From assembly GCA_016927565.1 (NCBI GenBank), contig JAFGMK010000006.1, positions 37,942-101,941 of the forward strand: a DNA stretch of 64,000 bases, given 5' to 3'. Within the stretch, counting starts at the first letter, position 1. Each line of letters begins with the position of its first letter. Below the pieces are notes generated by a model. That model worked only from the letters and a program-made list of their open reading frames with translations, searched no databases and had not been told where the DNA came from. Source of the stretch: Minisyncoccota bacterium. Lineage in GTDB: Bacteria; Patescibacteriota; Microgenomatia; PFEM01; JAFGMK01. Of the stretch, positions 3,948 through 48,301 are shown one piece after another. The translations under genes and the position numbers were made by a program.

Positions 3948-5156
3948 CTAATAGGCCACCTCTTGGCCGGTCGGCAGAATCTCCAGCCAAATCGGTCCGG
4001 GATTAAAAGCAATTTCCTGACCGTTTTCTTGGGTAAAGGAAGTCCTTCCCTCTCTTTGTTTTTTTCGCCAATTTCCTTTAATAACCTGACCGTCCTGAAA
4101 AACCAGCGCCTGTCCCTGGCCGATTGTCTGATAAAGTAAATGCTTTGAAGCATCTCCGGTCCGGGTTTCTTTTAAAAATTGGATCGCCACCACTTTAGCC
4201 GAAAGCTGCTGATTGGTATTAAGATCCAAATGAGGCTGGTTGTTGTTAAAGCGAAGATACTGATTTTTATCTTTGTCATATTCCCAACGAACTTCATAAC
4301 CGGATTGGCTTTGCCAGAAAGCAAACTCAATTTTGGAAACCTGGCCTTCTTGGGCCGTTTCCTCTTTAGCGGGCCAGGGGACAAAGTTTTCATCCCAACG
4401 ATCTCCCGCCTCGTCAGTTTGAGTCAATCCTCTTGATTGGGCAATCCACCAAAGCCGGTCGGGCGTAGAGTACATGGTATGCTCCATCGCCACTCCTTTT
4501 AAGCGCTCCATATCCCGCCAAAAAGTCAAACCGCCTTCCGGATATTGGGTTTCCTTGGCCCGGAGAGAGGTCTGGTCAATATCGCTATAAAGACGCCAAC
4601 CGTAACTCTCAATTTGTTCCAAAGCTTTGGCTTTGGAATTAGTTTTGCCTAAATTACCAAAATCGTTTGCTCCGCCGACATGAACATAAAGAGGATAATC
4701 ACCATATTCGGAAATCCAGTCAAGGAAGTAAGTCCTGGATGATCTTACCGGGCCAACAAAGAAATCCTCAGCTGAAGCCCGGCAAAAGTAAACCGCTAAA
4801 AATCTGGTAATCCCCCCTTCTGCCACCGCTTCGTAGACAATATCAGCTTTTGAAAGACCGGATTGCGGCCGGGAATCAAGATGATTTTCAATCATCACCC
4901 CCAAAGGTCTTCTTTTTTCCCAGATTGCCCTTTCTTCTTTAGTAAATTTTTCTCCGGTCAGAGGACAGATTTCAGTTTTCGGCGCCTCAAAATTAATCCG
5001 CGGGCGGCCGTCTTCAATTGACACCGGAGAAACCAGTATTGATGCTTCTCCTTTTTTACCACCAAAATAAGCAAAACCGGCATAAGAAAGACCGGCCGAA
5101 AGCAAATAAAGGCCCAAAGCGCTTAAAAGGTAAAAAATTATTTTCTTTTTTGGCAT
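3948..5156 (-). CDS. DUF3048 (YerB-like) lipoprotein-type secreted protein
   Basis: N-terminal signal/TM followed by a conserved DUF3048-like core (RPLGVMIENHLDSRPQSGLSKADIVYEAVAEGGITRFLAVYF). Confidence 0.55.
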   Translation of the reverse strand: MPKKKIIFYLLSALGLYLLSAGLSYAGFAYFGGKKGEASILVSPVSIEDGRPRINFEAPKTEICPLTGEKFTKEERAIWEKRRPLGVMIENHLDSRPQSGLSKADIVYEAVAEGGITRFLAVYFCRASAEDFFVGPVRSSRTYFLDWISEYGDYPLYVHVGGANDFGNLGKTNSKAKALEQIESYGWRLYSDIDQTSLRAKETQYPEGGLTFWRDMERLKGVAMEHTMYSTPDRLWWIAQSRGLTQTDEAGDRWDENFVPWPAKEETAQEGQVSKIEFAFWQSQSGYEVRWEYDKDKNQYLRFNNNQPHLDLNTNQQLSAKVVAIQFLKETRTGDASKHLLYQTIGQGQALVFQDGQVIKGNWRKKQREGRTSFTQENGQEIAFNPGPIWLEILPTGQEVAY

Positions 5157-5165
5157 TTTATTTTA

Positions 5166-5639
5166 TTATTTTAATTTTTTTGCTTCTTTAATTGCTCTTC
5201 CTTCTTCCTCAGAAAAAGAATAGCCGGCCTCTTTGCCTTCCTTGACGGGTTTGGCATAAATCCTGGTTGTTTCCCGACTGTGGAGACTGGAAATCACCAA
5301 ACCGCTTTTTCGATCATCCAGAAGGGCCAGACAAAAACTTTGGTCCCCACCGGTTTCAGCAAAGGGGTTAAATCTTACCAAACCAACCTGTTGCAAATGA
5401 AAAAGACCCTCCCTTTCAATTCTTTTGCTAATTTCCAGTAAGTTTTCAATCTGTTTTTTCCCTTCGCTAGTGCTTTTTAAAACTTCTTCCAAAACCGATT
5501 TAAGATCTTTTCCCGCTCCGGCAATTCCCAAACGACGGTAATGAGCCGATAAGCGAAAAAACAATACTGTTAAAACTAAAAGCCAAACAAAAAGAACCCC
5601 TGCCCCGACCCAAAGCGCAGTTGGGAAATTGAACAACAT
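5166..5639 (-). CDS. DUF4446 family membrane-anchored protein
   Basis: N-terminal TM plus the conserved GLVRFNPF...GGDQSFCLALLD...G.VISSLHSRE block. Confidence 0.55.
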   Translation of the reverse strand: MLFNFPTALWVGAGVLFVWLLVLTVLFFRLSAHYRRLGIAGAGKDLKSVLEEVLKSTSEGKKQIENLLEISKRIEREGLFHLQQVGLVRFNPFAETGGDQSFCLALLDDRKSGLVISSLHSRETTRIYAKPVKEGKEAGYSFSEEEGRAIKEAKKLK

Positions 5640-5800
5640 CTGTATCCTTCCTGTCTTTCCTATTCTAATCCGGCTCTGATCAAACTGTCAACTCCTGCAA
5701 ATGTCCAGAATGCCTGATGGAAACAACGAGCCCGGACACCTGCAATACTTCCTGCCGCCCTTGAACTTGAAACTGGGTTATGATAACTTAAAACTCAATT

Positions 5801-10201: not shown

Positions 10202-11536
10202 ATGCCTAAATCAGTTCTGGCAATTTTTTATCAGGATTACTGGCGAGATGAAGCAATCAGTCTTCTGATTGCTTCCAAGAATCTGAAAGAATTCTTTCCT
10301 TTTGCTGCCAAAGATATTCATCCGCCACTTTACTACCTTTTACTTCACTTTTGGATTAAGTTATTTAGCGAATCCGAGTTTGCAACACGAAGTCTTTCCC
10401 TTATCTGCCATCTTTTATTAGTCTTTTTTTCCTACCAAATATTAAAACACCTTTTAAAAAATCGTTTAATCTCACTCTGGATTACTCCATCAATCTTGCT
10501 AAACCCCTTTTTAATCAAGTATGCCGCTGAAGCCAGAGCCTATTCTCTCTTTGGTTTCTTGGTTATTGCCGCTATCTTTTTTTATCTCAAGAAGCGTTTT
10601 TTTCTAAGTTCGTTTTTTTGGGCTTTGACAATCATCACTCACAATATCAGCCTTCTTTACCTGACATCCTTGGCTATTTTTTGGTTCTGGCAAAACAAGA
10701 AGCGTTTCCGGAAAAAGATCCGTCAGTTTACTCTTATATTTGGCCTCCCTATTTTAGTTTTCCTACTCCGGATCAAGTTTATCTGGTCCCAATCTGCACG
10801 AATTGGGCAGAGGTTTTGGATCAAACCGGCTCCTTTCCCAATTTTTCTAACTGCTTTCAAGGCTTTTTTCCAAGGTCAACTATACAGCCCCAAAACCAGG
10901 ATGTTAAACTATAGATTGGCCCTAGCCCTGATTTTAATCAGCTTTTTTTATTGGATTATTAAAAGAATTTATCCTCAGAAAACCAGGAAAAGCCCTGATC
11001 AGCAAAGTCTAATTTTAGTTTTCCTATCCTTTGCTCCTCTTGTCTTAATTGAAAGTATTTCTCTTATCTGGATCCCTCTTTATCATGAAAAGGTGGTCAT
11101 TCCCAGTCTTCCCCTTTTTATTATCTGGATTGCCTGCGCTCTCTTAAAGTTAGGAAAGATCAGCAGAAGCCTTAAGCTTTCCCTTGTCTTCCTGGCTCTA
11201 ATTTATAATTTTACTTTGGCTTTTGGAGCCAAAGAAACTCTAGCCGCTACCTCCAAACCCCCAATTAGACAGGCTGTTAATCAAATTCTTTTAAAGGCAA
11301 AAGAAACAGACATTATTATCCCTGAGTCGCCGCTCAATTTTCCCGAAACTAAGTATTACCTTAATAAGTCGGCCAAAAAACTACCAGTGCTTGCTTTCTT
11401 TAAAGAACCAGAAGAGTCCTTCCATGTTTATTATATTTGGATCGAGCCAGAGGAAAGAATTTATAAATATCCCCAAGATCAAAATGTCTGGATTATTACC
11501 CTTGACGGGAAATATTTCTTAAGAGGCAATCAGTAA
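10202..11536 (+). CDS. GT39/GT83-like (ArnT/PMT family) membrane glycosyltransferase
   Basis: The first periplasmic loop has WRDEAISLL and KDIHPPLYYLLL, which match the DE...HPPL signature of the ArnT/PMT family. Multi-TM, 444 aa. Confidence 0.6.
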   Translation: MPKSVLAIFYQDYWRDEAISLLIASKNLKEFFPFAAKDIHPPLYYLLLHFWIKLFSESEFATRSLSLICHLLLVFFSYQILKHLLKNRLISLWITPSILLNPFLIKYAAEARAYSLFGFLVIAAIFFYLKKRFFLSSFFWALTIITHNISLLYLTSLAIFWFWQNKKRFRKKIRQFTLIFGLPILVFLLRIKFIWSQSARIGQRFWIKPAPFPIFLTAFKAFFQGQLYSPKTRMLNYRLALALILISFFYWIIKRIYPQKTRKSPDQQSLILVFLSFAPLVLIESISLIWIPLYHEKVVIPSLPLFIIWIACALLKLGKISRSLKLSLVFLALIYNFTLAFGAKETLAATSKPPIRQAVNQILLKAKETDIIIPESPLNFPETKYYLNKSAKKLPVLAFFKEPEESFHVYYIWIEPEERIYKYPQDQNVWIITLDGKYFLRGNQ

Positions 11537-11538
11537 CT

Positions 11539-11868
11539 CTATCCCCCATATCTCTTTAAAAGCCCCGGGTGATCGGCTTGCATTTTTTTGTAAATCGTTA
11601 AGGCCAGAAATAAAGACTCCTGGATGAATTTTTCTGACGCCCCAACTTCTTTAATGTTTTGGGTAATCCTTTTAATATCCGGCTGATTCTCGAGATTTGC
11701 GATGTTTCGGGTCCGGACCAAGACATCGACCGCCTGCCAAGCCAGCTGTCTTAATCTTAGACGCTCCATTTCGGTTTTATCACCGCAATGTTTTTCGATC
11801 AGCTCGTCAATTGGCCTTCTTAGCCTGGCCATAATTTCCTGGTCAGTTTCCTGTTTTAATTGGTTCAT
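11539..11868 (-). CDS. hypothetical protein
   Basis: 109-aa ORF that converges on the GT39-like gene. No motif recognised. Confidence 0.35.
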   Translation of the reverse strand: MNQLKQETDQEIMARLRRPIDELIEKHCGDKTEMERLRLRQLAWQAVDVLVRTRNIANLENQPDIKRITQNIKEVGASEKFIQESLFLALTIYKKMQADHPGLLKRYGG

Positions 11869-11994
11869 TAAATCCTATTCTACTACAGCCTTAGAATTCT
11901 TTTCCATCTCCCGCAGCAAAAAATAACTTTAATGCCTTTAACGATCCGGGATCATTTTTAAGTAGACGATCCGGTAAAAATATCTGGGAAATCG

Positions 11995-41629: not shown

Positions 41630-43318
41630 TTATTCCTGTACCATTCTTAAGATTTCTTCAATCGTTGTAATCCCGGCGGCCACTTTATTCAGACCATCAG
41701 CGACCATACCGATCATCCCATTGGCTAAAGCCGCTTTTCTGATTTCATCACTGGAAACTTTTTTCAAGATCAGCTGCCTGATTTCAGCGTTAGTTTCTAA
41801 AATCTCAAAAATGCCAACGCGACCCCGATAACCCTTGCCGCCGCACTCTTCGCAACCCTTACCCCGATAGAAATCCTGACTCATTTTCTTTTGACCCGAA
41901 AGTTTTTTGACTAAACCCAGAGTTTTATCGTCCGGCTCAAATCGCTGGATACAAGCCGAACAAATCCTTCTGACCAATCTTTGCGCAATTACCAGATTCA
42001 CCGTCGAAGCAACCAAAAAATTTTCGGCTCCCATATCCAAAAGGCGGGGAACCGCTCCCGGAGCGTCATTAGTGTGGAGAGTGGACAGAACCAGATGTCC
42101 GGTCAGAGCCGAGTTAATTGCCATTTCAACCGTTTCCGGATCACGAATTTCGCCTACCATAATAATATCCGGGTCGTGTCTGACCAAAGCCCGGATACCG
42201 GCGGCAAAAGAAAGGCCGGTTTCCGGATTAGCCTGAATTTGAGTTATCCGGGGCATACTATATTCAATCGGATCCTCGACAGTGCAAATTTTAACTTCAG
42301 TCGAATTAATCATATTTAAAAGACTGTAAAGCGTTGTCGTTTTGCCGGAACCGGTTGGGCCGGTCACTAAAATCATTCCGTGGGGCTTTTTGATATTTTC
42401 TTTGAGAATTTCAAAATTTTTCCCTGATAAACCCAACTCTTCCAAACTTAAAGGCCGGGCCGATTCAAAAAGAAGCCGCATAACGATATTTTCCCCGTAA
42501 AAAGCCGGAATAATAGAAACTCTCAGGGAAATAAAACCTCCACCCAGGCCGAATTTGAACCGGCCATCCTGAGGCAACCGGTGTTCGTCAATTTTAAGAT
42601 GGGTCAAAACCTTCACCCGGGCCACAATCGCCGAATGAATCTCCACCGGTAAAGAAATAATATCTCTCAGCATACCGTCGATTCTATAACGGATAATCAA
42701 CTCGTTTTCCAAAAGCTCAATATGGATATCTGAAGCCCGTTCGGCAATGGCGTATTCCAGAAGCGTATCCAGGATTCTGACCACCGGAACATCAACGGCT
42801 GCTTTAACTAAGTTGTTACCGGTCGCCCCTTTGGCTTTAGTTTTTTTAACATTCTCAGTAATTATTTTCTCAAATTCTTTCCGGATATTTTTTTTGTACT
42901 GGGAAAGGCCTTTGACTATTGCTTCAGAAGTAGCGAAAAAAGGCTTTACCGCTAAACCGGACTGGCGCTTAACCAGCTCAATTGCCTCAAAATCCTCAGG
43001 ATCCTCCATCGCCAAGAAGAGCTCTTGGTCATTTTTCCCAAAAGGCAGGATATGAAAAGACCGGGCCGATTTTTCCGGAAGAAGACTTAGAATCTCAAGA
43101 GGGATTACCTTATGAGCCAAAGAAACAAAAGGAACCTGGTAATGTTCGGCCACCAATTGACCAAGAGACTCCTCATTGATCAAGCCCCGGAAAATTAAGA
43201 CATCAACCAGGGGCTTCTCCAATTCCTCGGCAATTTTAGCCGCCTTGTTGAAATCTTCCTCACCGACAAAACCTGCCTTTAAAACAATCTCTTTTAACTT
43301 TTCTGGCAGAATTTTCAC
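41630..43318 (-). CDS. pilB: type IV pilus assembly ATPase PilB/GspE
   Basis: N-terminal GSPII domain. Walker A GPTGSGKTTTLYS. Asp and His boxes. C-terminal tetracysteine CxxC...CxxC. Confidence 0.9.
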   Translation of the reverse strand: MKILPEKLKEIVLKAGFVGEEDFNKAAKIAEELEKPLVDVLIFRGLINEESLGQLVAEHYQVPFVSLAHKVIPLEILSLLPEKSARSFHILPFGKNDQELFLAMEDPEDFEAIELVKRQSGLAVKPFFATSEAIVKGLSQYKKNIRKEFEKIITENVKKTKAKGATGNNLVKAAVDVPVVRILDTLLEYAIAERASDIHIELLENELIIRYRIDGMLRDIISLPVEIHSAIVARVKVLTHLKIDEHRLPQDGRFKFGLGGGFISLRVSIIPAFYGENIVMRLLFESARPLSLEELGLSGKNFEILKENIKKPHGMILVTGPTGSGKTTTLYSLLNMINSTEVKICTVEDPIEYSMPRITQIQANPETGLSFAAGIRALVRHDPDIIMVGEIRDPETVEMAINSALTGHLVLSTLHTNDAPGAVPRLLDMGAENFLVASTVNLVIAQRLVRRICSACIQRFEPDDKTLGLVKKLSGQKKMSQDFYRGKGCEECGGKGYRGRVGIFEILETNAEIRQLILKKVSSDEIRKAALANGMIGMVADGLNKVAAGITTIEEILRMVQE

Positions 43319-43321
43319 TTT

Positions 43322-43753
43322 TTAAGACGGAAAATAACTCTTAACGAAAGCCACCACCTGGCTGGGAGTGTAATTCGATTTAATCAGAAAATGTTGAACC
43401 CCCAATTCTTTGGCCTTTTTAATATCCTGATCTTGAGATAAGTTAGAAAGAATGATCACCGGAATTTTATTCAACCGCTCGTTAGTTCTTACCTTTTCTA
43501 AAACATCCATCCCGCCAATCTTAGGGATCATCAGGTCTAAAACCACAAGGTCGATTTTCTTTTCGGCTAGTTTGACCAATCCCTCTTCGCCGTCATAAGC
43601 GGTTTCCACATTGAAACCTTCGGTTTTAAATTTGGTTGAATACATCTTAACCATCGGCAAATCATCCTCAACCAAAAGAATGGTTTTTGCCGAAACAGAC
43701 GAAACTGCCGGATCAGCTGTTTGGGAAATTTTCTCTTGCTGGTTTTGGCCCAT
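43322..43753 (-). CDS. stand-alone response-regulator receiver (CheY-like) protein
   Basis: ILLVEDDLPMV...DLVVLDLMIPKIGGMDVL has the D/D/K receiver residues. There is no output domain. Confidence 0.8.
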   Translation of the reverse strand: MGQNQQEKISQTADPAVSSVSAKTILLVEDDLPMVKMYSTKFKTEGFNVETAYDGEEGLVKLAEKKIDLVVLDLMIPKIGGMDVLEKVRTNERLNKIPVIILSNLSQDQDIKKAKELGVQHFLIKSNYTPSQVVAFVKSYFPS

Positions 43754-43762
43754 ATCTTTATT

Positions 43763-44725
43763 CTATTTTTTATTAATTATTGCCGGCAGGGAAAAATAAA
43801 AGGTGGTTCCTTTGCCTGGTTTGGATTTTAACCAAATATCACCGCCAAATTCATTAATCAGCATTCGACAAATATAAAGGCCCAAGCCCGAGCCTTTTTT
43901 TAAGGGCACCCCGACACCGATTTGAGAAAATTTTTTAAAAAGTTGTTTCTGATCCTCAAGGGCAATACCCACTCCGGTATCTTCCACTGTCACTGTAATC
44001 ATTTCATTTTCTTCATAAGCCCGGACATAAATATGACCATGGGGAGTAAAATTAATCGCATTGCCGATTAGATTGGAAACTACTTCCCTGATCCGATCCG
44101 GGTCAACTCTAACCTTAGGCAATTTTTTTCTCGGCTTAATAAATTTTAGCTCAAGGCCGTGCCCTTGAGCTTCTAAACGAAACTCCCTGACTACTCCTTC
44201 AATTACCTCTTCAATCTGAATATCCTCCAAACCAATAATTAATTTACCGGATTCAATTCGGGAGACATTAAGCATGTTGTTGATCAGGCGGATCATCCGA
44301 TCGTTGCTTTCTGAAACATCTTTTAAATACTCTTGAGCCTTAGGCGGAATTTTGCCGGCATCCCCCTCCCTCACCATTGAAATATAACCCTTAATCGTGG
44401 TCATCGGAGCTCTTAACTCATGGCTGGCCACAGTAACAAATTCATCCTTAAGCGCGGAAAGTTCTCTAAGCTTCACATTGGCTTTTTTTAATTGATTAGT
44501 CAGGTCCCGCAGTTTTTTGGTCGCCCTATAAGCTTCGGCCCGAAACTGCTCTCCGAAAAAAATTTTATCGATAAAAATAATTATCCAAACCGTAAAAATT
44601 ATTACCTGATTTTGAAAATTAAACCATTGGGGAAAAGCCAGCAAAATCAAGCCGCTGGCGGCCATTAATATCAGAATCAGCCCATTCCAGGTTTTTTGAA
44701 ATTGACGCGCGGTCAGCTCCAGCAT
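43763..44725 (-). CDS. sensor histidine kinase (2 TM, HisKA, HATPase_c)
   Basis: H-box VASHELRAPMTTIKGY, plus N, G1 and G2 boxes (GLGLYICRMLI). Confidence 0.8.
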   Translation of the reverse strand: MLELTARQFQKTWNGLILILMAASGLILLAFPQWFNFQNQVIIFTVWIIIFIDKIFFGEQFRAEAYRATKKLRDLTNQLKKANVKLRELSALKDEFVTVASHELRAPMTTIKGYISMVREGDAGKIPPKAQEYLKDVSESNDRMIRLINNMLNVSRIESGKLIIGLEDIQIEEVIEGVVREFRLEAQGHGLELKFIKPRKKLPKVRVDPDRIREVVSNLIGNAINFTPHGHIYVRAYEENEMITVTVEDTGVGIALEDQKQLFKKFSQIGVGVPLKKGSGLGLYICRMLINEFGGDIWLKSKPGKGTTFYFSLPAIINKK

Positions 44726-44764
44726 ACTTTGAGAATATCATTTTAACCTTTCCCTTTCAATCCC

Positions 44765-45580
44765 GCCATTTAAAACTTCTATACACCCCTGGGGTGTCTT
44801 AAGTTGGCACCCCCGGGAAATTTTTAGTTAGTCTTCCATGAACAGATGCTTTATCTCCTCTAATCTTCTTTGGTAATCAGCTTGATCCAGAACAAATTTT
44901 CGGTAATCATTTCTATTTCTGGAACGATCAAGAATTACTCCCTGGTCACAAAGCCCAAGTTCTTTTTTTCCAAGATACTCGGGAAAAGAAGAATATGGGT
45001 ATTCCGTCAGCTGATTTCTATCTTTTAACAAATAAGCGGAAAAGGGGTTTAGATGGATATATCTTGAAAGATGGAGAAGTTGGGCTTCGGTTTCCACTCT
45101 GACTGCCTTAAATCTTCCCTGAAACAAAGGGCCGATTCTTTTCCTTTTAGTGTTAAAATATTTGGTATAGCTGTTGGCTATCTGACTAATAAATTCTTTA
45201 ATTCCGTCTTCCCTCTCTTGTTTTAAAAGAAAGTGAAAATGATTAGGCATTAAGCAAAAGGCAATAATTTTCACTAAATAATTTTGCTTTTCTTCTACCT
45301 TCTCCCAAAGGAGTTGTCTTTCCTTTTTAGGCAAAAGCAAAAACTTAGAATATCTTAAGGGAAAATCGGATCGACGATAAAAATCAATTACTTTTAACAT
45401 CCGCTTATAGTCCCGGGTGCTAAGGAAAATAGGCTGAAAGGCCACGCCCCGATTAAAAACATGATAAAACTCACCGGTTACCAGGGGTATTCTTGGGTTG
45501 GTCATATACTTCTTAAGTTATGCCAAAAATCCTGAGGTGTCAATAGAAATACACCCCAGGGGTGTATATTTCAGGGATTG
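44765..45580. mobile_element. IS200/IS605-family or RAYT-like element: a Y1 HUH transposase gene flanked by inverted 18-nt identical palindromes
   Basis: TATACACCCCTGGGGTGT occurs on the plus strand at 44779-44796. Its reverse complement occurs at 45551-45568. Each is itself a palindromic hairpin. Confidence 0.6.
44828..45505 (-). CDS. IS200/IS605-family Y1 (HUH) transposase, REP-associated tyrosine transposase-like
   Basis: YHVFNRG, the HUH motif MPNHFHFLL, a catalytic Tyr region SYTKYFN, and GPLFQGRF...YIHLNPF. 225 aa is long for IS200 TnpA and closer to RAYT size. Confidence 0.7.
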   Translation of the reverse strand: MTNPRIPLVTGEFYHVFNRGVAFQPIFLSTRDYKRMLKVIDFYRRSDFPLRYSKFLLLPKKERQLLWEKVEEKQNYLVKIIAFCLMPNHFHFLLKQEREDGIKEFISQIANSYTKYFNTKRKRIGPLFQGRFKAVRVETEAQLLHLSRYIHLNPFSAYLLKDRNQLTEYPYSSFPEYLGKKELGLCDQGVILDRSRNRNDYRKFVLDQADYQRRLEEIKHLFMED

Positions 45581-45633
45581 AGACTCGGCACAAAAGAGCC
45601 TATACTTGTAATTAATTAGTTTCTTTATTTCTA

Positions 45634-47079
45634 ATGCACACTTACAGCGTTTCCCTAGCTCAAAAAATCCCTGAAGAGCAACAAGCCCGCAATCAAGCAC
45701 AAGAATTAGTCAACAAACTTCAAAAAGCAGAAGAACAAATCAAACTCCAATTAACGGATTTGTCAGAAAAAAACCGGGTTTTAGCCGCGCTAAGACGATT
45801 AAACCTAATCATTATGGAATCTTTGGAGATGGAAAGTTTGTGCCAAAAAATTGTTGACACTCTTTCTGTGGAGTTAAAGTGCAGCTTTGGCCTGATCGGC
45901 ATAATTGATGAAACCAGAAATCGATTTTATTTCAAAGCGATTAATAAAGATTCGCGCCTGGCCCGGCTTTTTCGGCAAAAGCATATCAAAATTGAAGAGA
46001 GCTATCTCTCACTTGAAGAAAAAAATAATTCAATTAATCAAAGCATCAGTCTTAAAAAGAAAATTTCGGCTAAAAAAATCGCTGACATTCTTTGTCCTCT
46101 TTTCCCCCGAAAAAAACTCCAAGGCTGGCAAAAGATAGTAAAAATTTCAACTTGCCGGATTTATCCGATTATTTCCAAAACCAATGTTTTGGGAGCGATG
46201 GTGTTCGGCTGGAAAAAAGCGAAACACAAAATTTCCCCGGAAGAGAAAGATTTGATGAAAAATGTGATTGACCAAACCAGCATTGCCCTGGACAATACCA
46301 TTCTTTACCAAAAACTAAAACGGAGCGTTAGTCAACTCAAGCAAGCCAATCTGAAACTTCAGGATTTAGACCGGATGAAGAATGAATTTGTTTCAATTGC
46401 ATCTCACGAACTCAGAACCCCGATGACTTCGGTCAACAATTATATTTGGATGGTGCTTCGCGGCAAGGGCGGGCAGATTACCACCAGACAACGCTTTTAT
46501 CTGGACCGGGCCGCGACCTCAACCCAAAGACTGATCAATCTGGTTGAAGACATGCTGACCGTTTCCCGAATTGAAGGCGGCAAACTGGAAATCAACCTTA
46601 AGCCGGGGAGTATTTTAAAAATCGGCAAAAATGTCATTGAAGAACTAAAGCCCAAAGCCAGAGAAAAGAAGATCAAATTATTTCTGGAATTACCAAAAAA
46701 GGAACTTCCCCTGGCCTTAATCGACCAAGAAAAGATTAAAGAAGTTTTCATCAATTTGGTTGACAATGCCCTTAAATTCACTCCGGTCGGGGGCCAAGTA
46801 AAAGTCACTTTCAATCTCAAAGGCAAAATGATCCTAATCCAAATTACCGATACCGGCCGAGGCATTCCTAAAAATGATATTCCTAAACTTTTCAAAAAAT
46901 TCGGCCGGCTGGACCGTTCTTTTGTCACTATCGCCGAAACCGGCGGCACCGGCCTGGGCCTTTATATCTGCAAACAAATCATCGATCTTCACCGAGGCCG
47001 AATCGGGGTCAGGTCGATTCCGGACAAAGGGTCTTGTTTTTACTTTAATATAAAAATTGCAGAGGAGGTGAAAAAATGA
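45634..47079 (+). CDS. sensor histidine kinase (GAF-like N-terminus plus HisKA plus HATPase_c)
   Basis: H-box IASHELRTPMTSV and a G-box GGTGLGLYICKQII. Overlaps the downstream receiver gene (ATGA). Confidence 0.8.
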   Translation: MHTYSVSLAQKIPEEQQARNQAQELVNKLQKAEEQIKLQLTDLSEKNRVLAALRRLNLIIMESLEMESLCQKIVDTLSVELKCSFGLIGIIDETRNRFYFKAINKDSRLARLFRQKHIKIEESYLSLEEKNNSINQSISLKKKISAKKIADILCPLFPRKKLQGWQKIVKISTCRIYPIISKTNVLGAMVFGWKKAKHKISPEEKDLMKNVIDQTSIALDNTILYQKLKRSVSQLKQANLKLQDLDRMKNEFVSIASHELRTPMTSVNNYIWMVLRGKGGQITTRQRFYLDRAATSTQRLINLVEDMLTVSRIEGGKLEINLKPGSILKIGKNVIEELKPKAREKKIKLFLELPKKELPLALIDQEKIKEVFINLVDNALKFTPVGGQVKVTFNLKGKMILIQITDTGRGIPKNDIPKLFKKFGRLDRSFVTIAETGGTGLGLYICKQIIDLHRGRIGVRSIPDKGSCFYFNIKIAEEVKK

Positions 47080-47444
47080 AAAAAATATTATTGGTTGAGG
47101 ACGAACAATTCTTAAGTGACTTATATGCTGAAGTTTTAAAAGCGGAAGGCTTTTCAGTTGAAACGGCTCACGACGGCCAAAAAGGCTATGAGACCATGAA
47201 AAAAAGCAGCTTTGACCTGGTTCTCCTGGATATCATGCTGCCAAAAATGGACGGAATTGATATTTTGAACCGCCTGAAAAAGGAAAAAAAGCTAAAGCTC
47301 AATAAACACATTATTTTACTGACCAACCTTTCCGGAGAAGCGGTCTTAAGAAAAAAGGGGCATATCGAAGTTGACGAATATCTTATCAAAAGCTCTCTTA
47401 CGCCTGATATTTTAGTAGAAAAAGTGAAAGAATATCTGAAGTAG
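47076..47444 (+). CDS. stand-alone receiver-domain protein
   Basis: KILLVEDEQFL...DLVLLDIMLPKMDG. 122 aa with no output domain. Confidence 0.8.
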   Translation: MKKILLVEDEQFLSDLYAEVLKAEGFSVETAHDGQKGYETMKKSSFDLVLLDIMLPKMDGIDILNRLKKEKKLKLNKHIILLTNLSGEAVLRKKGHIEVDEYLIKSSLTPDILVEKVKEYLK

Positions 47445-47461
47445 CCGTTAAGCGTCGGCTG

Positions 47462-47839
47462 TCAGTTCTCGGAGGATAAAAAAACCTCCACTTCAGCTAA
47501 AATCTCATCCGGTTTTAGAGCCTGTTTCATTAAATAGCCATTGGCCCCCAAACGCATGGCCCTTTTGATAAATTTATCCTGATTCAAAACCGTCAGCATG
47601 ACAATTTTTTGATTGCTGATCGGAGGACTAAGTTGTTTCAGCTGAAAAAGAAGGGAAATGCCGTCTTTTTTGGGCAGCATGATGTCAAGCAGAATTAGAT
47701 CATAACCCCCCCGGGAAGCCAAATCAAACCCGGCTTGGCCGTCGCTGGCTGTTTCAACCTGATAACCTTGCTGTTTGAAAAGAAGTTCGTAAAGTTCCCT
47801 CGTAAAACGATCATCTTCAACCAGAAGAAGTTTATACAT
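47462..47839 (-). CDS. stand-alone receiver-domain protein (tandem paralogue 1)
   Basis: MYKLLLVEDDRFTRELY...DLILLDIMLPKKDG. Start taken at the ATG at 47839. The ORF track starts it at a GTG at 47863. Confidence 0.7.
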   Translation of the reverse strand: MYKLLLVEDDRFTRELYELLFKQQGYQVETASDGQAGFDLASRGGYDLILLDIMLPKKDGISLLFQLKQLSPPISNQKIVMLTVLNQDKFIKRAMRLGANGYLMKQALKPDEILAEVEVFLSSEN

Positions 47840-47859
47840 TTTAAAAAAGATGATAACAA

Positions 47860-48234
47860 TCACTCCGTCTTTAAAAAGACGGCTATCTCAGCCAAAACCT
47901 CATCCGGCCTCAGGGCTGATTTCATCAGATAGCCATGAGCTCCCATTCGCAAGGCGTTTTTAATAAACTCATCCTGATTCAAAACCGTCAGCATGACAAT
48001 TTTTTTATTTTTTTTCTTAGCCGGAATTTCTTTTATTTTTCTCAGAAAAGTCAAACCGTCAATCTTGGGCATAATGATATCCAGCAGGATTAGATCAAAC
48101 CCGCCTTCAATTGCCTTAGCAAGACCGGCTGCCCCGTCTTCAGCTACTTCCAAATCATAACCCTCTCCTTTTAAAAGAGTTTCATATAGCTCGCGGGTGA
48201 AACGATCGTCCTCAATTAAAAGTATCCTGACCAT
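47860..48234 (-). CDS. stand-alone receiver-domain protein (tandem paralogue 2)
   Basis: MVRILLIEDDRFTRELY...DLILLDIIMPKIDG. Roughly half identical to its neighbour by eye. Start taken at the ATG at 48234. The ORF track uses a TTG at 48270. Confidence 0.7.
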   Translation of the reverse strand: MVRILLIEDDRFTRELYETLLKGEGYDLEVAEDGAAGLAKAIEGGFDLILLDIIMPKIDGLTFLRKIKEIPAKKKNKKIVMLTVLNQDEFIKNALRMGAHGYLMKSALRPDEVLAEIAVFLKTE

Positions 48235-48301
48235 TAAATTTAATATAACATTCTTTAGAAAGCCGATCAAGGTAAATTACTCGCACTCTTTAACAAAGAT
48301 A

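What the first reader, a model, noticed from the sequence alone, without database searches (positions are those of the whole stretch)
44765..45580. HUH (Y1) transposase of the IS200/RAYT family flanked by identical inverted 18-nt palindromes, inserted between two histidine-kinase operons
The 225-aa protein has the HUH motif (NHFHFLL), a Tyr-containing SYTKYFN region, and a C-terminal GPLFQGRF...YIHLNPF block.

TATACACCCCTGGGGTGT occurs 30 nt beyond the 3' end of the gene on one side. Its exact reverse complement occurs 45 nt upstream of the start on the other side. Each is itself a hairpin.

This looks like a REPtron (a RAYT flanked by inverted REPs) or the subterminal hairpins of an IS200/IS605 element. 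The protein size favours a RAYT.
Basis: partly seen in the sequence, partly recalled or inferred. Interest (0 to 1): 0.5.

Follow-up and report, generated by a model that had tools for sequence, protein, structure and literature searches.

The report
RAYT-like nuclease gene with cognate hairpins
A single-copy gene for a RAYT/TIRYT-type single-strand DNA nuclease sits between two mirror-image ~39-nt modules (hairpin plus promoter-embedded half-copy), an arrangement conserved across a large family in Patescibacteria (CPR) metagenomes and not an ordinary IS200 insertion.

Summary
ORF 44828-45505 (-) encodes a 225-aa Y1 HUH protein (Pfam Y1_Tnp, 37.9 bits). TATACACCCCTGGGGTGT lies 30 nt past its stop, and its exact reverse complement lies 45 nt before its start.

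The repeat is longer than reported. Each side is a ~39-nt module: a distal hairpin, a 6-7 nt spacer, then a truncated hairpin copy beginning TTG(A/G)CACC. The upstream half-copy supplies the -35 of the gene's own promoter.

Among 73 non-redundant homologous loci from metagenomes, 62 have the upstream hairpin and 59 the downstream one. The stem is kept by compensatory changes, the half-copy covaries with it, and tandem paralogues carry different hairpins.

The protein matches the published signature of TnpA-Y1 subclass 2.1 (RAYT group 1, TIRYT): NHFH, FQ, YIHLNP, SS tail. Its predicted fold is closest to E. coli TnpA-REP (4ER8).

It is not IS200-like: no near-identical copies, and the same locus in every sample examined. 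It is not a classic REPtron either: no GTAG foot, no further copy in 64 kb, and about one solo module per 40 kb in relatives.

Verdict: a TIRtron/REPtron-like resident cassette, a new variant of a known kind. That the enzyme binds or nicks these hairpins and represses its own promoter is inferred, not shown.

The parts
44828..45505 (-). Gene for a 225-aa class-2 Y1 HUH single-strand DNA nuclease/transposase-like protein (HUH = H89-F90-H91; catalytic Y149; N153)
   Evidence: ORF. Pfam Y1_Tnp 37.9 bits. NCBIfam REP_Tyr_transpos 57.8 bits, below the cut-off of 80. H89, H91 and Y149 are invariant in 110 homologues. AF2 model pLDDT 92.2. Best PDB match 4ER8, E 1.2e-7.
45551..45568 (-). Upstream (5') hairpin, TATACACCCCTGGGGTGT read on the - strand. 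The stem can extend to 45549-45567.
   Evidence: ssDNA fold -7.2 kcal/mol, z -3.9. It falls in the column block 32-50 of alignment A3, where the stem is supported by covariation.
45530..45543 (-). Upstream half-copy TTGACACCTCAGGA. It is a truncated copy of the hairpin arm plus loop, and its first six bases are a consensus -35 (TTGACA).
   Evidence: Read. TTGAC and the bases after it are >=90% conserved in 62 loci. It covaries with the hairpin 3' arm.
45515..45520 (-). -10-like hexamer TAACTT, 17 nt after the -35 and 9 nt before the ATG. This implies a leaderless or nearly leaderless mRNA (inferred).
   Evidence: Sequence. The family consensus is TTGACA-17-TAnnnT at this position. The consensus scan does not call it, because only 3 of 6 bases match.
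44780..44797 (+). Downstream (3') hairpin TATACACCCCTGGGGTGT
   Evidence: ssDNA fold -5.0 kcal/mol, z -3.1.
44804..44818 (+). Downstream half-copy TTGGCACCCCCGGGA, the mirror image of the upstream half-copy. It pairs with one arm of the hairpin in the minimum-energy fold of the 61-nt module.
   Evidence: Sequence. The alternative fold GGGGGTG...CACCCC has lower predicted energy (-9.5 kcal/mol, 61-nt module) than the central hairpin folded on its own 26-nt stretch (-5.0 kcal/mol). An inverted copy of the half-copy occurs downstream in 25 of 63 loci with a TTGAC anchor.
44780..45568 (.). Whole cassette (789 bp): module - gene - module, bounded by imperfect ~39-nt inverted repeats
   Evidence: The same layout is seen in most of 73 homologous loci.
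44732..44760 (-). Context: promoter-like site for the left histidine-kinase operon (HK 43763-44725, RR 43322-43753), just outside the cassette
   Evidence: ORFs. Pfam labels.
45578..45606 (+). Context: promoter-like site for the right histidine-kinase operon (HK 45634-47079, RR 47076-47444), just outside the cassette
   Evidence: ORFs. Pfam labels.

Best explanation
The ORF encodes a class-2 Y1 HUH enzyme. This is the RAYT/TnpA-REP side of the family, and its signature matches TnpA-Y1 subclass 2.1 (RAYT group 1, TIRYT). The gene sits in a 789-bp cassette bounded by two mirror-image modules. Each module is a GC-rich hairpin followed by a truncated second copy of that hairpin.

Shown:
- The modules are the protein's cognate DNA. 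They are present at fixed distances in most homologous loci.
- The stem is maintained by compensatory substitutions, and the half-copy covaries with it.
- The two modules of one gene are the same type, and neighbouring paralogues have different types.

Inferred by analogy with E. coli TnpA-REP and IS608 TnpA:
- The enzyme binds the hairpin when the DNA is single-stranded, for example at a replication fork.
- It uses H89/H91-bound metal and Y149 to nick and rejoin DNA next to or within the hairpin.

Inferred from the anatomy:
- The upstream half-copy carries the -35 of the gene's own promoter. Occupancy or refolding of that module would then throttle expression (autoregulation).
- The mRNA is leaderless or nearly so.

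The cassette behaves as a resident, single-copy, positionally stable gene that only rarely seeds solo modules elsewhere. It does not behave as an actively transposing IS or a prolific REP generator.
For: Protein:
- Pfam Y1_Tnp above threshold.
- All 25 family members tested hit REP_Tyr_transpos at about 1e-15 and no other NCBIfam model.
- HUH histidines, Y149 and N153 align with H59/H61/Y115/N119 of 4ER8 (PMC3479197).
- The AF2 model (pLDDT 92.2) is closest to 4ER8, ahead of the IS608 and ISDra2 TnpA structures.
- NHFH / LFQG / YIHLNP / YSSF and 225 aa match Table 1 of PMC6006769 for subclass 2.1.

DNA:
- 62 of 73 loci have an upstream hairpin and 59 of 73 a downstream one. The median position is 43 nt before the ATG and 24.5 nt after the stop.
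- Hairpin columns are 82% paired against 38-49% when slid. Eight of nine pairs show double changes, and 0 of 500 shuffles reach the observed value.
- The half-copy against the 3' arm is 81.5% paired against 23-57% when slid. Five of six pairs show double changes.
- The two hairpins of one gene share the same 6-nt inner stem in 38 of 38 loci, against 21% between loci.
- Tandem paralogues in L025 and L069 each have their own hairpin type.
- The same 17-mer flanks a homologue that is only 41% identical (L090).

Behaviour:
- The nearest homologue is 64% identical, and clusters hold 1-7 sequences.
- Identical proteins sit at the same locus on 22 and 10 contigs.
- Only 11 solo hairpins occur in 459 kb of flanks, and none in the window.
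Against: - No biochemical data exist for this clade or for subclass 2.1. Binding, strand choice and cleavage sites are all inferred.
- The window's -10 is weak (TAACTT), and the consensus scan did not call this promoter.
- Loop orientation is not conserved (28 direct, 21 inverted). This is unlike the strict strand and orientation specificity of TnpA-REP and IS608.
- About 10-15% of loci lack a perfect hairpin on one side.
- Subclass 2.1 membership rests on published motif strings, not on the authors' HMMs.
- Only 64 kb of the source genome could be examined. The source genome was not in the genome collection scanned.
Confidence: 0.7

Rival explanations
1. Canonical REPtron: a RAYT whose cognate REP or REPIN population is dispersed at high copy number through the rest of the genome. 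On this reading the two flanking hairpins are only the local members.
For: - The gene is flanked by its own palindromes.
- Solo and doublet modules exist in short intergenic gaps of related genomes: L030, L037, L086, L087, L089, L092, L093 and L096.
- One MAG carries two further copies on other contigs besides the flanking pair.
- Only 64 kb of the source genome was visible.
Against: - No extra copy in 64 kb at up to 2 mismatches.
- About one solo copy per 40 kb across 459 kb of homologue flanks.
- In 185,579 genomes the exact 17-mer never occurs more than 3 times per genome.
- No GT[AG]G at the hairpin foot.
- The NCBIfam equivalog score is below its cut-off.
Confidence: 0.12
2. An autonomous IS200/IS605-family insertion sequence (tnpA only). 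The two hairpins would be its subterminal LE/RE structures, and it would have inserted recently between the two kinase operons.
For: - Y1_Tnp hit.
- Hairpins near both ends.
- The cassette sits exactly between two promoter-like sites.
- The orthologous kinase in relatives is longer, and one relative has no Y1 gene upstream.
Against: - The Y motif is YIHLNP, not Y...Q. The protein is 225 aa with a conserved C-terminal domain, not a ~150-aa core (PMC6006769 Table 1).
- No NCBIfam IS200 hit.
- No near-identical copies anywhere.
- Fixed locus in populations.
- Paralogues are about 50% identical.
- The ends are mirror-image rather than co-oriented on one strand.
- No tnpB.
Confidence: 0.05
3. The hairpins are ordinary transcription signals: an insulating terminator upstream and a terminator downstream, with a standard promoter. 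They would have no direct relation to the enzyme's catalytic activity.
For: - The upstream hairpin is called terminator-like on the - strand.
- A consensus TTGACA follows it.
- The downstream hairpin lies after the stop codon.
Against: - The family consensus has no T-run after the stem.
- The same sequence type occurs on both sides of each gene and differs between paralogues.
- A truncated copy of the hairpin is mirrored inside both modules.
- Solo copies occur elsewhere.
- Known relatives bind such hairpins (PMC3479197, PMC8266576).
Confidence: 0.08

Closest known systems
TIRtron / TIRYT (Di Nocera et al. 2013, PMC3733652) = TnpA-Y1 subclass 2.1 (Quentin et al. 2018, PMC6006769) = RAYT group 1 (Bertels et al. 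2017, PMC5581495)
   Same: - Protein signature NH[YF]H, FQ, Y[IV]HLNP and an SS-containing tail; length about 225-238 aa.
- Low copy number with divergent paralogues.
- Gene bracketed by inverted repeats at a roughly constant distance.
- Flanking repeats only modestly repeated in the genome (group 1: about 12 occurrences of flanking 16-mers).
- Plasmid examples fetched here (L126-L128, 31-32% identical) show the same layout.
   Different: - The published TIR motif is GGGGWSAS (seen as GGGGTCAG and GGGGACAG in L126-L128). Here the conserved core is CAC...GTG, mostly CACCT-loop-AGGTG.
- Quentin et al. found no REP-like secondary structures for subclass 2.1. This clade has a covariation-supported hairpin plus a half-copy that contains the -35.
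- No Bac_DnaA_C or HTH Pfam hit in the tail.
- The hosts that carry names are Patescibacteria/CPR.
E. coli REPtron: TnpA-REP (RayT/YafM, PDB 4ER8) with REP/BIME
   Same: - Best structural match.
- HUH, catalytic Tyr and Asn are aligned.
- Y...NP motif.
- Single-copy gene flanked by cognate hairpins.
   Different: - 17% identity, and 165 against 225 aa.
- E. coli REPs have a GTAG foot and a bulged stem and number about 600 copies.
- Here the stem is a perfect short one with no GTAG and very few copies.
- The promoter-embedded half-copy is not part of the published description of REPtrons.
IS200/IS605 family (IS200, IS608, ISDra2 TnpA)
   Same: - Same Pfam family and fold.
- Hairpins near the ends.
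- IS200 also has a hairpin upstream of its tnpA promoter (my recollection, not checked here).
   Different: - Class 1 enzymes have Y...Q, about 150 aa, act as obligate dimers, and occur in multiple near-identical copies.
- Their LE/RE hairpins lie on one strand with guide tetranucleotides, often with tnpB.
- None of these holds here.

Membership tests
Y1 HUH transposase/nuclease superfamily (Pfam PF01797) | Profile match above the curated threshold | tested here: met
   37.9 bits against a cut-off of 23
Y1 HUH transposase/nuclease superfamily (Pfam PF01797) | HUH metal-binding motif and a single catalytic Tyr on helix alphaD; ferredoxin-like fold | tested here: met
   H89-F90-H91 and Y149 are invariant in 110 sequences. 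They align to H59/H61/Y115 of 4ER8. The AF2 model matches 4ER8, IS608 and ISDra2.
IS200/IS605 TnpA (TnpA-Y1 subclass 1.1) | Y motif Y---Q; core-only protein of about 150 aa | tested here: not met
   YIHLNP; 225 aa with a conserved 70-aa tail. Criteria from PMC6006769 Table 1.
IS200/IS605 TnpA (TnpA-Y1 subclass 1.1) | Multiple near-identical copies per genome; mobility between loci | tested here: not met
   One copy in 64 kb. Nearest homologue 64% identical. Identical proteins always at one locus. The whole source genome was not available.
Canonical RAYT / TnpA-REP REPtron (subclasses 2.2, 2.4, 2.5) | Class-2 Y motif Y---NP | tested here: met
   Y149-I-H-L-N153-P154
Canonical RAYT / TnpA-REP REPtron (subclasses 2.2, 2.4, 2.5) | NCBIfam equivalog NF047646 above its cut-off | tested here: not met
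   57.8 bits against 80. No member reported above the cut-off: best E-value among the 25 is 6e-16, close to the window protein's 1.1e-15 (57.8 bits); the other members' bit scores are not listed.
Canonical RAYT / TnpA-REP REPtron (subclasses 2.2, 2.4, 2.5) | Gene flanked by cognate palindromes | tested here: met
Canonical RAYT / TnpA-REP REPtron (subclasses 2.2, 2.4, 2.5) | Conserved 5' GT[AG]G at the foot of the hairpin | tested here: not met
   No conserved tetranucleotide precedes the stem in 62 aligned loci. The conserved bases are CAC/GTG inside the stem.
Canonical RAYT / TnpA-REP REPtron (subclasses 2.2, 2.4, 2.5) | High-copy dispersed REP population | tested here: inconclusive
   0 extra copies in 64 kb. 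11 solo copies in 459 kb of homologue flanks. At most 3 exact copies per genome in 185,579 genomes. The source genome is not fully visible.
TnpA-Y1 subclass 2.1 / RAYT group 1 / TIRYT-TIRtron | Signature NH[YF]H, FQ (in place of W), Y[IV]HLNP, proximal tail with SS; median 238 aa | tested here: met
   NHFH (88-91), LFQG (127-130), YIHLNP (149-154), YSSF (171-174), 225 aa, read against Table 1 of PMC6006769. This is a motif comparison, not an HMM assignment.
TnpA-Y1 subclass 2.1 / RAYT group 1 / TIRYT-TIRtron | Assignment by the authors' subclass HMMs or MCL clustering | not testable with these tools
   The profiles are not available here.
TnpA-Y1 subclass 2.1 / RAYT group 1 / TIRYT-TIRtron | Terminal inverted repeats at a roughly constant distance from the gene | tested here: met
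   ~39-nt mirror modules in the window. Family medians of 43 nt and 24.5 nt.
TnpA-Y1 subclass 2.1 / RAYT group 1 / TIRYT-TIRtron | TIR motif GGGGWSAS | tested here: not met
   The window has GGGGTGTA. The family consensus is GAGGTGGA or AGGTG. Bona fide TIRYTs L126-L128 do show GGGGTCAG or GGGGACAG.
TnpA-Y1 subclass 2.1 / RAYT group 1 / TIRYT-TIRtron | C-terminal HTH / Bac_DnaA_C-like domain (subgroup 2.1.2) | tested here: not met
   No such Pfam hit at E <= 1. The tail is helical and confidently modelled, but it was not matched to a known domain.

The most novel reading that the evidence does not exclude
The hairpin-plus-half-copy module would be the long-missing DNA substrate of the largest and least understood RAYT group (subclass 2.1 / group 1).

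In Patescibacteria it would work as a structure-sensing switch. The same three-arm element that the nuclease recognises as single-stranded DNA also carries the -35 of the nuclease gene. Expression would then be coupled to the folding or occupancy state of the module, for instance during replication. Rare solo modules would act as portable TTGACA promoters or nicking sites.

The family's persistence as a stable single-copy gene in many reduced genomes would then reflect a host-beneficial single-strand DNA processing function rather than selfish mobility.
Probability: 0.25. Interest if true: 0.65.

Novelty: new variant of a known kind. Interest (0 to 1): 0.45.

Why it matters
RAYT group 1 / subclass 2.1 is the most widespread branch of domesticated Y1 transposases. 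Yet the phylogenomic survey (PMC6006769) found no REP-like structures next to its genes. No biochemical work on this group turned up in the papers I read, so its function appears to be unknown.

This window led to a very large clade: 1,308 clusters at 50% identity with E <= 1e-30. The members that carry a name are from Patescibacteria. In this clade the cognate DNA is obvious, short and supported by covariation.

That makes the group experimentally tractable:
- defined oligonucleotide substrates for cleavage and strand-transfer assays;
- natural specificity variants for swap experiments;
- a simple prediction of autoregulation through a promoter inside the recognition module.

It also shows that 'two copies versus many copies' is not a valid test for separating IS200-like from RAYT-like elements.

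Tried and rejected
- **Genome-wide hairpin count.** The exact 17-mer scan of 185,579 genomes did not contain the source genome. Four of the nine Patescibacteria hits were coding coincidences, which I read as a uvrC PGVY motif without testing it. The scan therefore could not count copies in this organism.
- **Rfam.** Nothing relevant in 44600-45750; only a chance U4 hit at E 0.97.
- **PADLOC and PHROGs.** No PADLOC match. One weak unannotated PHROG. Defence or phage readings were dropped.
- **Conserved gene neighbourhood.** The commonest neighbour family is shared by only 8 of about 80 loci. There is no obligatory partner gene.
- **Apparent length variation downstream of P0033.** The intergenic spacer varied among samples, but this came from different start-codon calls on identical DNA. 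It is not evidence of module turnover.
- **Empty-site test.** The closest kinase orthologues are only 62-63% identical and lie on short contigs. One (L129) lacks a Y1 gene upstream. The comparison is too distant to prove insertion.
- **Strict 14-mer search for the mirrored half-copy.** It misses many loci, the window's own included, because of indels. The 25 of 63 figure is a lower bound.
- **PDB sequence search with the family profile.** It gives only marginal E-values (0.007-0.05). The fold comparison was needed.
Full report
**Observation**

ORF 44828..45505 on the - strand encodes 225 aa with NHFHFLL, NSYTKYFN, GPLFQGRF and RYIHLNPF. TATACACCCCTGGGGTGT occupies 44780-44797, 30 nt past the stop. 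Its exact reverse complement occupies 45551-45568, 45 nt before the ATG.

The palindromic core occurs only at these two places in 64 kb, even with two mismatches allowed. Shuffles give a mean of 0.02, and none of 100 reaches two matches. As single-stranded DNA the two copies fold at -5.0 and -7.2 kcal/mol, better than all 200 shuffles.

The protein passes Pfam Y1_Tnp at 37.9 bits against a cut-off of 23. No second copy or fragment of the gene is in the window.

**The repeat is longer than 18 nt**

On the gene-proximal side of each hairpin, after 6-7 nt, lies a related half-copy. These are TTGACACCTCAGGA (45543-45530, - strand) and TTGGCACCCCCGGGA (44804-44818, + strand). The cassette 44780-45568 is therefore bounded by imperfect ~39-nt inverted repeats.

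The upstream half-copy begins with a consensus -35 (TTGACA). Seventeen nt later comes TAACTT, and the ATG follows 9 nt after that. In the downstream module the lowest-energy fold pairs the half-copy with one hairpin arm rather than forming the central hairpin. Each module is thus a three-arm element with alternative structures.

Promoter-like sites for the two flanking histidine-kinase operons lie just outside the two hairpins.

**Family and comparative anatomy**

The protein has more than 7,000 homologues in the word-indexed search. Nearly all are about 225 aa. The nearest is 64% identical, and clusters hold 1-7 sequences. Those that carry names are from Paceibacterota, Microgenomates, Shapirobacteria and similar groups. 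An exhaustive profile search finds 1,308 clusters (at 50% identity) with E <= 1e-30 and 14,912 with E <= 1e-10. H89, H91 and Y149 are invariant in 110 sequences.

I fetched 80 homologous loci from metagenomes and inspected their flanks.
- Of 73 non-redundant loci with enough flank, 62 have a GC-rich hairpin upstream and 59 downstream.
- In 54 loci the two hairpins share the same inner stem.
- The upstream hairpin ends a median of 43 nt before the ATG. The downstream one starts a median of 24.5 nt after the stop.

A MAFFT alignment of 62 upstream regions (A3) gives the consensus TCCACCTCnGAGGTGGAnTnCTATTGACACCTCGGGTAnTTTnnnnTAnnnT, followed 7-9 nt later by the ATG. CAC, GTG and TTGACAC are at least 90% conserved.

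Two pairings were counted on that alignment.
- **Hairpin stem.** It is 82% paired against 38-49% for slid controls. Eight of nine pairs show compensatory double changes, and no shuffle reaches the observed values.
- **3' arm against half-copy.** It is 81.5% paired against 23-57% for slid controls. Five of six pairs show double changes.

Extreme variants make the half-copy relation plain.
- L072: hairpin AATCATTCCGGGAATGATT with half-copy TTGACATTCCGGGA.
- L025 gene 1: ATAACGATCCCGTATCGTTAT with TTGACGATACGG.
- L057: ACACTCCGGGAGTGT with TTGACACTCCGGGA.

With 6-nt inner stems, the two hairpins of one gene match in 38 of 38 loci, against 21% between loci. Tandem paralogues on L025 and L069 each carry their own hairpin type. 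The window's exact 17-mer also flanks a homologue that is only 41% identical (L090).

Loop orientation is not conserved: 28 loci are direct and 21 inverted. What is usually mirrored is the order hairpin, then half-copy, then gene. An inverted downstream copy of the half-copy occurs in at least 25 of 63 anchored loci, and a direct one in 7.

**Behaviour**

Copies of each locus's own hairpin core away from the gene are rare. There are 11 in 459 kb of flanks and none in this window. Those that exist are complete modules or doublets in short intergenic gaps.

The exact 17-mer never occurs more than three times per genome among 185,579 species representatives. Four of the Patescibacteria hits are coding coincidences, which I read as a uvrC PGVY motif without testing it.

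Identical proteins occupy one fixed locus in every sample examined.
- P0033 lies between mraZ and def on 22 contigs.
- P0004 lies at one site on 10 contigs.

Gene neighbourhoods differ between distant loci, and there is no recurrent partner gene. This is the profile of a resident, low-copy gene, not of an IS.

**What the protein is**

The profile and sequence searches point to the RAYT side of the family.
- NCBIfam gives only REP_Tyr_transpos, at 57.8 bits and below its cut-off of 80. All 25 members tested hit only this model at E-values near 1e-15; their individual bit scores are not listed.
- The best PDB sequence hit is E. coli TnpA-REP. H89/H91/Y149/N153 sit opposite H59/H61/Y115/N119, the published active site (PMC3479197).
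- A confident AF2 model (pLDDT 92.2, pTM 0.87) is closest to 4ER8 (E 1.2e-7), ahead of the IS608 and ISDra2 transposases.

Against the published classification (PMC6006769 Table 1), the motifs fit TnpA-Y1 subclass 2.1. These are NHFH, FQ in place of the W motif, YIHLNP, an SS-containing tail, and a length of 225 aa. Subclass 2.1 equals RAYT group 1 of Bertels et al. (PMC5581495) and the TIRYT/TIRtron class of Di Nocera et al. (PMC3733652).

That group is reported to have low copy number, no REP-like structures, and TIRs sharing GGGGWSAS. Three plasmid TIRYTs fetched for comparison (31-32% identical) do show GGGGTCAG or GGGGACAG repeats at both ends. The present clade instead conserves CAC...GTG within a hairpin, has no GT[AG]G foot, and adds the promoter-embedded half-copy.

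I found no paper in the held library linking RAYT terms with Patescibacteria beyond one passing KEGG annotation.

**Mechanism**

Shown: the modules are the gene's cognate, co-evolving DNA, and the catalytic residues are intact.

Inferred from TnpA-REP and IS608 (PMC8266576; PMC3479197): the enzyme recognises the folded hairpin on single-stranded DNA. It nicks and rejoins through a 5'-phosphotyrosine intermediate.

Inferred from the anatomy:
- The -35 lies inside the half-copy, so module occupancy or refolding should repress the gene.
- The short distance from the -10 to the ATG implies a leaderless or nearly leaderless transcript.

A possible footprint of activity is the recurrent partial tandem duplication of 'outer flank + distal arm (+ loop)' next to hairpins in several loci. 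Its junctions tend to fall at the loop. This is suggestive only.

**Rivals**

- **High-copy REPtron.** Not excluded for the unseen part of the genome, but every available count disfavours it.
- **Active IS200-type element.** Contradicted by protein class, copy number and locus stability.
- **Purely transcriptional role for the hairpins.** Does not explain paralogue-specific types, the mirrored half-copies or the solo modules.

**Context**

'Inserted between two kinase operons' is right as a description and unproven as history. The orthologue of the right-hand kinase is 719 aa in one relative. Its N-terminal 266 aa have no counterpart anywhere in the window. Another relative has a membrane ORF, not a Y1 gene, directly upstream. 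A rearrangement at the cassette boundary is possible, but the comparison rests on proteins only 62-63% identical.

**Verdict**

This is a real feature, correctly spotted. It is a TIRtron/REPtron-like cassette of the RAYT group 1 / subclass 2.1 kind. Its hairpin-plus-promoter module has not been described in the literature I could search and is conserved across a very large clade whose named members are from Patescibacteria. I rate it a new variant of a known kind, of moderate interest.

Noticed in passing
L110:4528-5972 compared with L113:3263-3338: A ~1.45-kb IS110-family element (DEDD_Tnp_IS110 + Transposase_20) is inserted inside the promoter half-copy of a homologue, at TTGACACCT^TGGG. The insertion is absent from another sample of the same population. 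The right end of the IS supplies a new TTGACA at about the same distance from the ATG. My recollection, not checked here, is that IS110-family elements target REP-like palindromes.
   Followed up: partly
Upstream or downstream flanks of L014, L041, L043, L044, L046, L051, L042 and L113 (L113 3265-3290): Partial tandem duplications of 'outer flank + distal hairpin arm (+ loop)' lie immediately outside the hairpins. Their junctions often fall at the junction of the loop and the 3' arm. They may be footprints of nicking and rejoining, or of replication slippage at the hairpin. None is present in the window.
   Followed up: no
window 45634-47079 (+); P0122; L129:1-1770: The right-hand GAF histidine kinase (481 aa) lacks the N-terminal ~266 aa (membrane and GAF region) of its closest orthologue, P0122 (719 aa, 62% identical). 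That part is found nowhere in the 64-kb window. In L129 a membrane ORF, not a Y1 gene, precedes the kinase. Homology to the window starts at 45616, 48 nt from the hairpin. This may be truncation or rearrangement at the cassette boundary.
   Followed up: partly
L082:3690-3706, L099:3031-3047, L100:3082-3098, L104:1943-1959: In these genomes the exact hairpin 17-mer lies inside a conserved coding context (...ccagACACCCCAGGGGTGTATttt..., read as P-D-T-P-G-V-Y-F). I take this to be the UvrC N-terminus, but did not test it. It is a palindromic coding coincidence that inflates hairpin counts in Patescibacteria.
   Followed up: partly
L025:3649-4338 and 5045-5719; L069:2015-2692 and 11282-11923: Two divergent paralogues (about 50% identical) lie on one contig, each bracketed by its own distinct hairpin type. 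These are natural specificity pairs for swap experiments.
   Followed up: partly
L032:3575-3604, L058:864-893, L071 upstream of 2765: A sub-clade has a different layout. The hairpin (TCACACACCCGGTGTGTGA type) ends only 12-13 nt before the ATG, with no TTGACA half-copy. It directly follows a conserved membrane-protein gene end, which by eye looks like a SecD/F C-terminus (untested).
   Followed up: no
L086:7794-7830, L096:1050-1092, L037:8586-8625, L030:8265-8304, L092:3256-3294, L089:5112-5150: Solo or doublet modules (hairpin plus half-copy, some with an intact TTGACA) sit in short intergenic gaps, 1.4 kb or more from any homologous gene or on a different contig. This is low-level REP-like dispersal. 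Whether any serves as a promoter for the neighbouring gene was not examined.
   Followed up: partly
L090, L086, L096 (CAZJNI01) and L105 (CAYNFZ01): The two most divergent homologues (40-41% identical) that carry the window's exact hairpin come from MAGs labelled Gammaproteobacteria and Pseudomonadales, but with 36-46% GC. Either the family extends beyond Patescibacteria or these bins are mislabelled or chimeric. L105 has four hairpins within 4 kb.
   Followed up: no
window 41630-43318 (-), 47076-48270: The cassette lies in a signalling-rich stretch. It includes a PilB/GspE-like ATPase ORF (my reading of the translation, not tested), two histidine kinase-response regulator pairs (Pfam labels) and two further ORFs that I read as response regulators (47462-47863 and 47860-48270, -; not profile-tested).
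   Followed up: no
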